DNA of 64,000 nucleotides, from assembly GCA_944389125.1 (NCBI GenBank), contig CALXLF010000004.1, forward strand, positions 70,234 through 134,233. The letters are read 5' to 3'. Below, in pieces: positions 1,286-3,166 of the stretch. This DNA comes from an uncultured Clostridia bacterium. Lineage in GTDB: Bacteria > Bacillota > Clostridia > TANB77 > CAG-508. The translations under genes and the position numbers were made by a program. The notes under the pieces are model-generated. The model did no database searches, was not told the DNA's origin, and saw nothing but the letters and a program-made list of their open reading frames with translations. The stretch's first letter is position 1, and the number at the start of each line of letters is the position of its first letter.

Positions 1286-3166
1286 TTAGATACTCTTATC
1301 TACCTCCTTAAACAGCTCATCAATTTCTGTATTGGAAAGCATTCCTTTCTCAATAAGTGCAGATGCTAATGCATCCAAATATGCACGTTTTTCATTAAGT
1401 AGATTTTCCGTATATACATGAGCTTCTCCCAGAATTACATCCATACGTTCACTAACTTTACTAATAAGCTCATCATTATACATTGGATTACTGCTTTCTC
1501 TTAAGTATACTCTATCTTGAGTAAACTCCTCATCCAATCCATAACGTGTAATGACATCTTTTGCAACCCTTGTAGCTTTTTTCAAGTCAGAGGTTGCCCC
1601 AGCAGTCAAATTGTTAGAATACATCTTTTCTGCAATTCTTCCTGCTAAAGTCTTTCCTATAAGCTGAATAAAATATTCTTTATTCATTAAAGGAGTAACA
1701 TCCGGATCAATTTCAAAAACATTGATTCCTTCATATTCTTCAGCTGGCATGATTGAAACTGCAAGTATAACATATTCTGTAAGTGCATTTGAAAATCTGT
1801 ATGCAATATAATGTCCAGCCTCATGGTATGCTAATGAAGTTTTAATTTTAATGTCCATCTTATCATATTTATTTTGATAAACATTAAAATTCTCCAAGAC
1901 ATCCTGCTTAATCACATTTGCTCTTCCATTAAGCTCAGCACTTACCATAGCCTTGTCTAACAAGTCAAGTGTTCTGTCAGGATTTCTGGTTTCAAAATTA
2001 AAACATGAAGCTTCAAAAATAATTGAATCTACAAGTTCTCTTGTAATTGTTGTTCCATGAAACTCTTCAAGCAATTTTATTTGATTTTTTATCATATCAT
2101 AAACCTCATCTGTTTTCGGTTCATTAACGATAATCTTTTCAAATCTACGCTTTAACGCAGCATCTCTTGAAAAGTATTCATCATATTCAGTTTTAGTTGT
2201 TGCACCAATTACTTGAGTTACTCCTCGTGCTAAAATAGGTTTTAGTGCATTTGCTAAATCAAGATCTCCATCTCTACATGCTCCTGCACCAAGCAAAAGA
2301 TGAATTTCATCAATAAATAATATACATTTTGGATTTTCTTCCAAAAATGCAATTAATTTCTGAAACCGTTCTTCTGCTGTCCCCCTGTATTTAGTTCCTG
2401 CTACAATTGCATTAACATCAAGGCTAATAACAATATTGTCTTTAAATTTTTCCGGACAATTTCCTGTTACAATCATCCATGTAAACTTTTCGACCAATGC
2501 AGTTTTTCCAACACCAGGTTCACCGATTAATATTGCATTTCTTTTTGTCTTTTTAAGCAAGATTTTTATAAGTTCTCTTGTTTCTTTATCCCGGCCACAA
2601 ATTTGGCACTCTTTACTATCTTTTGAGTACTTATTATTAAGTACTGTTAAGAAGCTTGAAAGCTCTCTAGGAAGCTCAAATCCTACCATATTATCACCTT
2701 CTAAGTATTTTAGTTTGTTAGCCGAATTGGGCATTTCAATTGTTGGAAGAAAAGTAAGTATAATGTGGTTATACTCTTCAGGAAACAGCTGTGCAAAAGC
2801 AACAGTAATATGAGAGATTTGAATAGAAGATGAATCATATTCATCTTTAGCAATTCTCATTGCTTCATCAATCATTCTGAGAATATCTCCATCAATCAAG
2901 AACTCCTCTTCTCCAATTAAAAAAGGAATAACTGAATATTCTTTTTTCCCAGACATCATCTCATTGAACAATTTTGCTTTTTTCTCTTCGATTTCCTCAG
3001 ATTTTACTCCCTTTGAAATAAAAAGATTATAAAGTGGCATTCCTGGTATTAAATACAATACTGAAAAAAATGCCTCTTTCGGAATACCTGGCACTCTTAT
3101 TCTCATAGATATTTTCCGTGCAGAACGGATTGCAAATAATACAGATCTGTCTAATAAATACTTCAT
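1286..3166 (-). CDS. AAA+ ATPase (ClpA/ClpB D1-like, with a Clp_N-like N-terminal region) fused to a C-terminal FtsH-type M41 zinc metallopeptidase domain (HEAGH); soluble, no TM segment
   Basis: Walker A LIGEPGVGKTA. The Clp D1 signature region (KYRGTAEERFQ, ILFIDEIH, RRFE) is present. The C-terminal part carries HEAGHYIAY, LAGRIAEK, TAGATSDLKKAT and YGL, which align closely with FtsH M41. Confidence 0.8.
   Translation of the reverse strand: MKYLLDRSVLFAIRSARKISMRIRVPGIPKEAFFSVLYLIPGMPLYNLFISKGVKSEEIEEKKAKLFNEMMSGKKEYSVIPFLIGEEEFLIDGDILRMIDEAMRIAKDEYDSSSIQISHITVAFAQLFPEEYNHIILTFLPTIEMPNSANKLKYLEGDNMVGFELPRELSSFLTVLNNKYSKDSKECQICGRDKETRELIKILLKKTKRNAILIGEPGVGKTALVEKFTWMIVTGNCPEKFKDNIVISLDVNAIVAGTKYRGTAEERFQKLIAFLEENPKCILFIDEIHLLLGAGACRDGDLDLANALKPILARGVTQVIGATTKTEYDEYFSRDAALKRRFEKIIVNEPKTDEVYDMIKNQIKLLEEFHGTTITRELVDSIIFEASCFNFETRNPDRTLDLLDKAMVSAELNGRANVIKQDVLENFNVYQNKYDKMDIKIKTSLAYHEAGHYIAYRFSNALTEYVILAVSIMPAEEYEGINVFEIDPDVTPLMNKEYFIQLIGKTLAGRIAEKMYSNNLTAGATSDLKKATRVAKDVITRYGLDEEFTQDRVYLRESSNPMYNDELISKVSERMDVILGEAHVYTENLLNEKRAYLDALASALIEKGMLSNTEIDELFKEVDKSI

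What the first reader, a model, noticed from the sequence alone, without database searches (positions are those of the whole stretch)
1286..3166. Soluble fusion of a ClpA/B-type D1 AAA+ module to an FtsH-type M41 metallopeptidase
The N-terminal two thirds (Clp_N-like region plus an AAA+ domain with GEPGVGKTA, KYRGTAEERFQ, ILFIDEIH and RRFE) is Clp D1-like rather than FtsH-like. The C-terminal third has an unambiguous M41 peptidase core (HEAGHYIAY, LAGRIAEK, TAGATSDLKKATRVAKDVITRYGL). There is no transmembrane segment and no second AAA domain. The gene sits beside a DUF308-like membrane protein and TspO. Canonical FtsH is membrane-bound with its own AAA subfamily, so this looks like a domain-shuffled cytosolic AAA protease.
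Basis: partly seen in the sequence, partly recalled or inferred. Interest (0 to 1): 0.55.

Follow-up and report, generated by a model that had tools for sequence, protein, structure and literature searches.

The report
Soluble Clp-D1 / M41 fusion protease family
This gene encodes a membrane-free protein that joins the front half of a Clp/Hsp100 unfoldase (N-domain plus first ATPase ring) directly to an FtsH-type zinc protease; it belongs to a conserved but unnamed and apparently unstudied family that would be an additional type of bacterial ATP-dependent protease.

Summary
Window 1286-3166 (minus strand) is one intact 626-aa ORF with its own RBS and promoter. Residues 1-140 are a diverged Clp N-domain, shown by profile-profile comparison and by fold; Pfam's Clp_N model misses it. 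Residues 166-430 are a Clp/Hsp100 D1 AAA+ module with a Clp-type lid and no M-domain (41% identical to E. coli ClpA D1; FtsH AAA only 24% over a 92-residue local match). Residues 431-626 are a complete M41 peptidase domain with HEAGH and the third-ligand Asp. There is no D2 ring and no transmembrane segment.

It is not a one-off. More than 120 clusters at 90% identity and about 100 representatives at 50% identity share the D1+M41 core. Across 97 diverse members the zinc site is invariant and the ATPase motifs are nearly so.

The neighbours (DUF308, TspO) are not linked to it: seven sampled members have seven different contexts, and each gene has its own sigma-A promoter.

No dedicated NCBIfam model, source name or paper was found.

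Best reading: a soluble, self-compartmentalising, ClpP-independent AAA+ metalloprotease, with a Clp-type front end and an FtsH-type degradation chamber. Activity, hexamer formation and substrates are inferred, not shown.

The parts
1286..3166 (-). Complete CDS, 626 aa plus TAA stop: Clp_N-like domain, Clp D1 AAA+ module, M41 peptidase
2747..3166 (-). Residues 1-140: diverged double-repeat Clp N-domain (4+3 helices with a beta-hairpin at 79-92 between the repeats)
   Evidence: hhalign 95.4% against genuine Clp N-domains; AF2 N-domain model pLDDT 88; the top 50 Foldseek PDB hits are all Clp-family N-domains, TM 0.5-0.65; Pfam Clp_N not detected
2672..2746 (-). Residues 141-165: flexible linker between the N-domain and D1
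   Evidence: pLDDT below 50 for residues 142-161; variable length and sequence in A1
2117..2671 (-). Residues 166-350: Clp D1 large AAA+ subdomain. Walker A GEPGVGKT at 2501-2524, pore loop GTKYRG at 2381-2398, Walker B ILFIDE at 2306-2323, GATT at 2195-2206, RRF Arg pair at 2141-2149
   Evidence: conservation
1877..2116 (-). Residues 351-430: Clp-type lid (AAA_lid_9) without an M-domain insertion
   Evidence: AAA_lid_9, 353-426; the ClpB model alignment stops at profile position 399, before the M-domain
1289..1876 (-). Residues 431-626: Peptidase M41 domain. HEAGH at 1811-1825; TAGATSD with candidate third zinc ligand D527 at 1586-1606
3174..3178 (-). Shine-Dalgarno GGAGG, 7 nt upstream of the ATG
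3296..3324 (-). Sigma-A-type promoter TTGACA-N17-TAAAAT (11 of 12). An equivalent promoter lies upstream of at least six of the seven family genes sampled; the seventh has TTGACT-N17-TAAAAT
3350..3371 (-). Terminator-like hairpin after the upstream DUF308 gene, marking a transcription-unit boundary

Best explanation
The gene encodes a soluble, single-chain ATP-dependent zinc metalloprotease built from three modules: a diverged Clp N-domain, one Clp/Hsp100-type D1 AAA+ module without an M-domain, and an FtsH-type M41 peptidase domain. The proposed mechanism is inferred by homology with Clp and FtsH machines. Six subunits would form two stacked rings. The N-domains, on flexible linkers above the D1 ring, would dock substrates or adaptors. 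The D1 ring would use ATP hydrolysis (Walker A/B, RR arginine fingers) and its KYRG pore-loop tyrosines to unfold and thread the polypeptide through the axial pore. The chain would emerge into the chamber formed by the M41 ring, where the HEAGH/Asp zinc sites cleave it. In effect the M41 ring takes the place of D2 plus ClpP in ClpAP/ClpCP, and the Clp N-D1 takes the place of the TM anchor plus FtsH-type AAA in FtsH. The gene is a stand-alone chromosomal gene of low-GC Bacillota, transcribed from its own constitutive-looking promoter. Shown here: the domain identities, the intact catalytic motifs, family-wide conservation, the absence of TM segments and the absence of conserved partners. Inferred: hexamer formation, ATP-dependent proteolysis and the cytosolic quality-control or regulatory role.
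For: Domain identities come from Pfam, NCBIfam and PDB sequence searches and from module-wise BLAST against E. coli ClpA and FtsH. The AF2 model has mean pLDDT 83. Its D1 superposes on ClpC1/ClpA/ClpB D1 at 2.5-3.2 A over about 260 columns with 37-40% identity. Its AAA+M41 pair matches substrate-bound AFG3L2 (6nyy_F, TM 0.65 normalised to the target, 489 columns) and FtsH, so the two-tier arrangement is FtsH-like. The N-domain is supported.

Selection on both activities is seen in 97 representatives at 27-58% identity to the query: Walker A Lys 97/97, Walker B Asp 94 and Glu 87, Arg pair 87 each, pore-loop aromatic 80, His448, His452 and Asp527 97/97, Glu449 96/97. None of the 97 members has a TM segment.

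The gene is independent. It has its own promoter and the upstream gene has its own terminator-like hairpin. At least six of the seven sampled family genes carry the same promoter type. The seven sampled neighbourhoods are unrelated. The gene's GC is 0.33 against 0.28 for the window, so there is no sign of recent import.
Against: There are no experimental data for any member. Only a monomer was modelled, so ring formation is not shown. Mitochondrial M41 proteases stripped of their TM span fail to hexamerise or hydrolyse ATP unless an artificial hexameric coiled coil is added (PMC5095350), so a TM-less M41 enzyme is not guaranteed to assemble. From general knowledge of ClpA and ClpB, D1 is usually regarded as the weaker or auxiliary motor, so a D1-only unfoldase may be weak or specialised. 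The pore-loop aromatic and the Walker B Glu are not universal in the family (80/97 and 87/97). No CtsR or CIRCE heat-shock operator lies upstream, so a classical stress-protease role has no regulatory support. Substrates and adaptors are unknown.
Confidence: 0.72

Rival explanations
1. It is a diverged FtsH paralogue that simply lost its transmembrane region, so its AAA module is of FtsH descent.
For: FtsH, AFG3L2 and YME1 structures align over residues 205-620 at E=1e-14 to 1e-18. Clp D1 and FtsH AAA both belong to the classic AAA clade (PMC7226402).
Against: With the AAA module alone, Clp D1 hits reach 185 bits (E~1e-53), and no FtsH is among the top 60, where the weakest listed hit has E=0.0065. 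It is 41% identical to ClpA D1 but only 24% over a 92-residue local match to the FtsH AAA. The lid is AAA_lid_9, the Clp type. The FtsH_fam HMM aligns only to 431-615. The N-terminus is a Clp N-domain. Mean D1 identity is 37% to Clp and 22.5% to FtsH.
Confidence: 0.02
2. It is an assembly or gene-calling artefact: a chimeric contig or a read-through joining a clp fragment to an ftsH fragment.
For: None beyond the unusual architecture.
Against: The identical protein is found on at least 8 contigs from ENA, Logan and NCBI. More than 120 clusters at 90% identity and about 100 clusters at 50% identity have the same collinear architecture. The ORF is uninterrupted, with an RBS and a promoter. The junction region (D422, F427, AYHEAGH) is conserved.
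Confidence: 0.01
3. It is an ATPase-only remodeller or disaggregase in which the M41 domain serves mainly as a hexamerisation scaffold, or conversely an ATP-independent peptidase with a degenerate motor.
For: The M41 ring is the stable oligomerisation platform in FtsH (general knowledge). The D1 ring alone may be a weak translocase. Some members deviate at the pore loop or the Walker B Glu.
Against: The HExxH histidines and the Asp ligand are invariant in 97/97, and the catalytic Glu in 96/97, at 27-58% identity to the query; that is hard to explain without selection for catalysis. The Walker A Lys is invariant and the arginine fingers are kept in 87/97.
Confidence: 0.08
4. It works as part of a membrane-associated module with the adjacent DUF308-like membrane protein and TspO, a split FtsH-like arrangement with the anchor encoded separately.
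For: The three genes lie on the same strand and are adjacent in this window and in its near-identical contigs.
Against: A terminator-like hairpin and a separate near-consensus promoter lie between the DUF308 gene and this gene. None of the six other family neighbourhoods contains DUF308 or TspO.
Confidence: 0.04
5. The molecular machine is as in the best explanation, but its role is a dedicated regulatory or conflict-related protease (for example a sporulation checkpoint, translation-stress response or phage defence) and not general protein quality control.
For: The N-domain is the fastest-evolving part, with 28% mean column identity against 52% for the whole protein, and it varies in length from about 0 to 427 aa, as expected for diversifying substrate or adaptor recognition. 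One homologue sits next to two GmrSD_N genes. Some hosts carry sporulation genes nearby. There is no heat-shock operator. Four of seven genes have a long leader with an extra SD-like motif.
Against: PADLOC gives only a weak generic P-loop hit. No member was found in the phage or plasmid collections. The neighbourhoods are otherwise housekeeping and show no recurring partner. The leader has no significant structure and no Rfam match.
Confidence: 0.13

Closest known systems
FtsH / AFG3L2 / YME1 (M41 AAA+ metalloproteases)
   Same: Both are single-chain AAA+ plus M41 enzymes. The M41 domain aligns end to end (AFG3L2 E=1e-15, FtsH E=4e-13), with HEAGH and the TTGAxxD-type Asp ligand conserved. The modelled AAA-over-M41 arrangement resembles an AFG3L2 subunit (TM 0.65 normalised to the target).
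   Different: It has no TM helices and no extracytoplasmic domain. The AAA module and lid are Clp-D1 type and not FtsH type. The pore loop is KYRG, not the FtsH aromatic-hydrophobic-Gly motif (MFVG in the canonical FtsH). The N-terminus is a Clp N-domain. The TIGR01241 score is 91 against a cut-off of 600. FtsH-like proteases are described as uniquely membrane-anchored (PMC7226402).
ClpA / ClpC (class I Hsp100 unfoldases of ClpAP and ClpCP)
   Same: Both have an N-domain, a flexible linker and D1. D1 is 41% identical to E. coli ClpA D1 and superposes at 2.5-3.2 A on ClpC1 and ClpA D1. Like ClpA, it has no M-domain.
   Different: It has no D2 ring, and therefore none of the ClpP-docking loop that D2 carries in ClpA/C. 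The protease is fused in cis and is a zinc metalloprotease instead of the separate serine protease ClpP. The N-domain is too diverged for Pfam Clp_N and has a beta-hairpin insert. The TIGR02639 score is 223 against a cut-off of 993.
Lon (LonA)
   Same: Both are soluble, single-chain proteins with an N-domain, one AAA+ module and a protease domain, so they are functionally analogous self-compartmentalising proteases.
   Different: Lon's AAA+ module belongs to the HCLR clade and its protease is a Ser-Lys dyad (PMC7226402, for the clade; general knowledge for the dyad). There is no sequence relationship beyond the P-loop: LonB E=0.0017 over 46 residues.
Engineered soluble hexYME1L (cc-hex fusion)
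   Same: It is an M41 AAA protease made soluble by replacing the TM anchor with another N-terminal module. It shows that M41 proteolysis does not intrinsically need a membrane (PMC5095350).
   Different: That construct is artificial and keeps the FtsH-type AAA module. Here the replacement is natural and includes the motor itself.

Membership tests
FtsH family (TIGR01241 / canonical M41 AAA protease) | N-terminal transmembrane helices flanking an extracytoplasmic domain | tested here: not met
   The maximum 19-aa hydropathy is 1.58, inside the helical N-domain. No TM-like segment was found in 97 family representatives.
FtsH family (TIGR01241 / canonical M41 AAA protease) | FtsH-subfamily AAA module (whole-protein score at or above the curated cut-off) | tested here: not met
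   TIGR01241 scores 91.4 bits against a cut-off of 600 and aligns only to residues 431-615. The AAA-only query finds no FtsH in the top 60. Identity to the E. coli FtsH AAA is 24% over 92 aa.
FtsH family (TIGR01241 / canonical M41 AAA protease) | C-terminal M41 peptidase domain with HEXXH and a third Asp zinc ligand | tested here: met
   PF01434 E=1.5e-25, profile positions 4-191 of 191. HEAGH and TAGATSD align to the FtsH and AFG3L2 motifs. These residues are invariant in 97/97.
Class I Clp/Hsp100 (ClpA, ClpB, ClpC) | Double-repeat Clp N-domain | tested here: met
   hhalign 95.4%, E=1.7e-8. The top 50 Foldseek hits are all Clp-family N-domains. It is diverged: Pfam Clp_N is not detected.
Class I Clp/Hsp100 (ClpA, ClpB, ClpC) | D1 AAA+ module with an AAA_lid_9 lid | tested here: met
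   Walker A/B, the KYRG pore loop, GATT and RRF are all present.
Class I Clp/Hsp100 (ClpA, ClpB, ClpC) | Second AAA+ module (D2, HCLR clade) with its C-terminal small domain | tested here: not met
   No hit to a second AAA module in Pfam. No BLAST hit to E. coli ClpA D2. The protein ends with M41. ClpA and ClpB equivalog scores (223 and 217 bits) are far below the cut-offs of 993 and 1232.
Class I Clp/Hsp100 (ClpA, ClpB, ClpC) | ClpP-docking loop (ClpA/C) or coiled-coil M-domain (ClpB/C) | tested here: not met
   The docking loop resides in D2, which is absent. The ClpB model alignment ends at profile position 399, and the lid runs straight into M41 without an insertion.
MEROPS/Pfam Peptidase family M41 (domain level) | Full-length match above the gathering threshold with an intact zinc site | tested here: met
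   90.6 bits against 29.9.
Functional AAA+ protease (any) | Hexameric stacked rings; ATP-dependent proteolysis | not testable with these tools
   Only a monomer model was possible. No biochemical data were found in seven literature searches.
Known anti-phage defence proteins (PADLOC) | Significant match to a defence-system model | tested here: not met
   Only IetA at E=4e-5 over the P-loop region, residues 196-289.

The most novel reading that the evidence does not exclude
This family is a previously unrecognised class of bacterial ATP-dependent protease, additional to ClpXP, ClpAP/CP, HslUV, Lon and FtsH. It would be a natural soluble hexamer in which a lone Clp D1 ring is the complete unfoldase-translocase and feeds an FtsH-type zinc-protease chamber in cis. 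It would be independent of ClpP and of any membrane, with a rapidly diversifying Clp-type N-domain setting substrate or adaptor specificity in gut and environmental Clostridia.
Probability: 0.45. Interest if true: 0.7.

Novelty: new variant of a known kind. Interest (0 to 1): 0.55.

Why it matters
All of the parts are textbook; the combination is not.

First, FtsH-type M41 proteases are regarded as uniquely membrane-anchored (PMC7226402), and removing the anchor from mitochondrial members destroys assembly and activity (PMC5095350). A natural, conserved, TM-less M41 enzyme would show how the protease ring can be assembled and fed without a membrane.

Second, in two-ring Hsp100 proteins the contribution of D1 compared with D2 to unfolding is still debated. 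Here nature offers a D1-only motor coupled to a built-in readout (proteolysis), which is a clean system for asking whether a D1 ring is a sufficient translocase.

Third, it would add a ClpP-independent degradation route with Clp-style N-domain recognition in Clostridia-type bacteria, many from metagenome assemblies. That is relevant to proteostasis, possibly to sporulation, and to drugs that target ClpC/ClpP.

It is also a practical annotation fix, because these proteins are currently unnamed or labelled 'ClpA'.

Tried and rejected
(1) The genome-contig scan with alignment A1 was wasted. Taxonomy therefore rests on indirect clues: a T-box leader and Spo0A/SpoIIR neighbours.

(2) Pfam Clp_N on the isolated N-terminus gave no hit. 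This was resolved by hhalign and by fold.

(3) The plasmid hit H1 (Subdoligranulum, 91% coverage) looked like a distant member but is a canonical membrane FtsH. The phage and plasmid collections contain only ordinary Clp or FtsH genes.

(4) Searches for CtsR and CIRCE operators upstream found none.

(5) The leader RNA has no significant fold (z=-1.46), no Rfam hit at E<=1 and no convincing alignment beyond the promoter. The mini-ORF idea is weak because the candidate start codons lie 0-3 nt from the SD-like motif.

(6) A first bootstrap NJ with Biopython timed out and was redone with a vectorised NJ. Monophyly of the family's D1 is favoured (98 of 99 in one Clp-free clade) but has only about 50% bootstrap support, so a single origin is not proven.

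(8) Seven literature searches found no description of the architecture. Subscription-only papers are not covered.
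Full report
**Observation**

Window 1286-3166 holds a single uninterrupted ORF on the minus strand. It has an ATG start, encodes 626 aa and ends in a TAA stop. A GGAGG Shine-Dalgarno lies 7 nt upstream.

- Pfam assigns Peptidase_M41 to residues 438-618 (E=1.5e-25, covering profile positions 4-191 of 191), AAA to 212-347, and the Clp-D1-type lid AAA_lid_9 to 353-426.
- NCBIfam aligns ClpA (E=6.6e-66), ClpB, ClpV, ClpK and ClpG models to roughly residues 167-425. The FtsH family model aligns only to 431-615. 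All scores are far below the equivalog cut-offs, so no curated NCBIfam family claims this protein.
- In the PDB the best sequence matches are the D1 parts of Hsp104, ClpA, ClpC and ClpB (E~1e-52). FtsH, AFG3L2 and YME1 follow at 1e-18 to 1e-9.

**Module-by-module test**

- The AAA module alone (residues 165-430) hits Clp D1 structures at about 185 bits (E~1e-53). The next non-Clp proteins (VAT, Rpt4, Vps4) score about 24 bits, and no FtsH appears among the 60 best.
- Against labelled E. coli references fetched, it is 41% identical to ClpA D1 over 224 aa (E=4.5e-61). It is 24% identical to the FtsH AAA over a 92-aa local match (E=7e-4), and it has no hit to ClpA D2.
- The C-terminal part alone aligns end to end with AFG3L2 (E=1e-15), T. 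thermophilus and T. maritima FtsH, and YME1. HEAGH aligns on HEAGH, and TAGATSD aligns on the FtsH TTGAxxD motif that carries the third zinc ligand. Identity to E. coli FtsH M41 is 25% over 194 aa.
- Hydropathy shows no TM segment.

The interpretation 'Clp D1-type AAA fused to a genuine M41 domain, no TM, no D2' therefore stands.

**N-terminal region**

Pfam does not detect Clp_N, even at E<=10. Other evidence does support a Clp N-domain.

- A profile of the family's N-termini (A3) matches a profile of N-domains cut from ten genuine two-ring Clp proteins (A4). The hhalign probability is 95.4% and E=1.7e-8 over 126 columns that span both repeats.
- An AlphaFold2 model of residues 1-165 (pLDDT 88, pTM 0.81) shows 4+3 helices with a beta-hairpin (residues 79-92) inserted between the repeats.
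- Its 50 best PDB matches are all Clp-family N-domains (ClpC, ClpC1, ClpV, ClpA, ClpB, Hsp104/Hsp101, ClpT). TM scores are 0.5-0.65 at about 12-14% identity.

It is therefore a strongly diverged Clp N-domain. Residues 142-161 have low confidence, as expected for the flexible N-D1 linker.

**Whole-protein model**

The full-length model has mean pLDDT 83. D1 superposes on ClpC1, ClpA and ClpB D1 at 2.5-3.2 A over about 260 columns with 37-40% identity. The AAA+M41 pair as a unit matches substrate-bound AFG3L2 (6nyy_F, 489 columns, TM 0.65 normalised to the target) and FtsH crystal structures. The relative placement of motor and protease is thus FtsH-like. The ClpB HMM alignment stops where the M-domain would begin, and the lid runs directly into the helix that carries HEAGH. 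The architecture is ClpA-like: N-domain, then D1 without an M-domain, then M41.

**A family, not an oddity**

- The word-indexed search returned more than 120 clusters (90% identity level) with 50-72% identity, the same Pfam architecture and lengths mostly between 617 and 701 aa. They come from NCBI, JGI, ENA and Logan assemblies.
- The exhaustive search of 1.84 billion 50%-identity representatives listed about 100 representatives whose single match spans query residues ~165-620, at 30-59% identity.
- In 28 closer members the catalytic motifs are invariant.
- In 97 diverse representatives: Walker A Lys 97/97; Walker B Asp 94 and Glu 87; Arg340 and Arg341 87 each; pore-loop aromatic 80; His448, His452 and Asp527 97/97; Glu449 96/97. 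None has a credible TM segment.
- The N-terminal region is the variable part, ranging from about 0 to 427 aa with a median of 198. One representative carries an extra AAA module in front, and a group of ~480-aa forms lacks the N-domain.
- A neighbour-joining tree of D1 modules (99 family sequences, 33 ordinary Clp, E. coli FtsH as outgroup) puts 98 of 99 family sequences in one clade free of Clp sequences, but with only about 50% bootstrap support.
- Mean D1 identity is 45% within the family, 37% to Clp D1 and 22.5% to FtsH.

A single origin is likely but not proven.

**Genomic context and expression**

In this window the gene lies downstream of a DUF308-like membrane protein and TspO, and upstream of an SDR gene. 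A terminator-like hairpin (3350-3371) and a near-consensus promoter, TTGACA-N17-TAAAAT (3296-3324), separate it from the DUF308 gene.

The seven sampled family members have seven unrelated neighbourhoods:
- DUF308 and TspO;
- two GmrSD_N genes and Sua5;
- NUDIX and a DEAD helicase, near Spo0A;
- an integrase and UvrA;
- DUF5711 and an ABC transporter;
- MatE and a pseudouridine synthase;
- a metallo-beta-lactamase-fold gene and Lgt, near SpoIIR.

At least six of the seven genes carry the same strong sigma-A-type promoter, and the seventh has TTGACT-N17-TAAAAT. The gene is therefore a stand-alone unit with no conserved partner, and the DUF308/TspO adjacency is incidental.

No CtsR or CIRCE operator is present. 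PADLOC gives nothing meaningful. The phage and plasmid collections hold no member. The window itself looks like ordinary low-GC Bacillota chromosome, with a T-box upstream of IleS, a PBP with PASTA domains and NAD-salvage genes.

**How it most likely works**

By homology, six subunits would form a D1 ring stacked on an M41 ring. N-domains on flexible linkers would recruit substrates or adaptors. D1 would hydrolyse ATP, and its KYRG pore-loop tyrosines would thread the chain into the M41 chamber, where the zinc sites would cut it.

Shown here: the module identities, the intact and conserved catalytic residues, solubility and genetic independence. Inferred: oligomerisation, coupling and the physiological role.

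The main caveat is assembly. Mitochondrial M41 proteases lacking their TM span neither hexamerise nor hydrolyse ATP unless a hexameric coiled coil is grafted on (PMC5095350). If this family is active, the Clp N-D1 part or the M41 ring must supply that assembly energy. From general knowledge, D1 is a major oligomerisation determinant in ClpA, which makes this plausible but untested.

**Comparison with known systems**

It works like FtsH in chemistry and stacking, and like ClpA/ClpC in front-end recognition and motor type. It fails membership of both. For FtsH it lacks the TM anchor and the FtsH-type AAA. For class I Hsp100 it lacks D2, the ClpP-docking loop and the M-domain. Lon is the closest functional analogue, being a soluble protein with an N-domain, one AAA+ module and a protease, but it is unrelated in both motor clade and protease chemistry.

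A review places ClpA/B/C-D1 and FtsH in the same classic AAA clade and calls FtsH-like proteases uniquely membrane-anchored (PMC7226402). The swap is therefore between related motors, yet the product contradicts the usual generalisation about M41 enzymes.

**Novelty and verdict**

No source gives these proteins a specific name; the only label seen is JGI's 'ClpA'. No NCBIfam model covers them. Seven full-text searches found no description, although subscription journals are not covered.

I rate it a new variant of a known kind: an uncharacterised, conserved AAA+ protease architecture built from known modules. Interest is moderate at 0.55. It is not a new principle, but it offers specialists a clean and testable natural experiment on D1-only translocation and on membrane-independent M41 assembly.

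Noticed in passing
window 33-987 (minus strand), junction near 772-776: The downstream SDR gene resembles a YdaD/YhxC-type general-stress SDR (resemblance from my own reading, not tested) and is split by a one-base insertion. The N-terminal part ('...FPPQHQDSQPGMEYLMNPRP...YYRAAGKL') is in one frame and 'SGKVAIVTGGDSGIGRAV...' is in the next. The same 257-aa truncated gene call appears in independent contigs (L001-L003), so it is probably a real frameshift or pseudogene and not a sequencing error.
   Followed up: partly
window 7163-14172 (minus strand); GC 0.34-0.38 over 8-18 kb against about 0.27 elsewhere: A higher-GC block encodes an N6/N4 DNA methyltransferase (7163-8191), a 590-aa protein with only weak kinase-like hits (8377-10149), a PP2C phosphatase (10165-11211), a protein with a weak vWA hit (11276-11992) and two proteins with no Pfam hit (12000-12938, 13228-14172). 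The vWA / PP2C / kinase-like combination resembles the vWA-phosphatase-kinase triads described in conflict systems (resemblance from memory, not tested). PADLOC gave nothing for the 590-aa protein.
   Followed up: partly
window about 3262-3275 (minus strand); L090, L097 and L101 leaders: Four of the seven family genes have a ~90-120-nt 5' leader containing a second Shine-Dalgarno-like motif, 'GGAGGTGA(N)GTTTA', about 90-100 nt upstream of the start, followed by possible 2-7-codon mini-ORFs. The candidate start codons are only 0-3 nt from the motif. The leader fold is not significant (z=-1.46) and there is no Rfam match, so the meaning is unclear.
   Followed up: partly
window 3206-3242 (minus strand): An inverted repeat, TTATGTGA-N19-TCACATAA, in the leader of the fusion gene forms the main predicted hairpin. 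It could be an operator or an RNA element. It is not conserved in the other sampled leaders; three of those instead carry 'ATGTTAC/GTAAC' near +1, including a perfect TGTTACAAATTTGTAACA palindrome in L097.
   Followed up: partly
residues C187, C297 and C388 of the window protein (window 2606-2608, 2276-2278, 2003-2005): Three cysteines are invariant among the 28 closer homologues: ECxICGR, GAGAC and ASCFNFE, at positions where ordinary Clp D1 has other residues. Across 97 diverse representatives they are kept in 58, 31 and 66. A redox or metal role is conceivable but untested.
   Followed up: no
P0162 (923 aa); P0269, P0277, P0279 and P0295 (about 480 aa): Architectural variants exist within the family. 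One representative has an additional AAA module N-terminal to the D1-like module (two AAA plus M41). Several short forms have essentially no N-domain, and their AAA part is more diverged, being detected only by generic P-loop/AAA models such as AAA_16, AAA_22 and NACHT.
   Followed up: partly
L086-L089 (context of homologue P0106), positions 1494-5932: In this lineage the fusion gene lies immediately downstream of two tandem GmrSD_N-domain genes and a WYL-domain gene, a defence-island-like setting not seen in the other six contexts.
   Followed up: no
window 29272-29345 and 29470-29543 (plus strand); 37478-37697 (minus strand): There are two tRNA-Gly(TCC) genes about 125 nt apart. A T-box leader (110 bits) lies upstream of the 927-aa class I aminoacyl-tRNA synthetase at 34637-37420, which supports a Bacillota origin for the window.
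   Followed up: no
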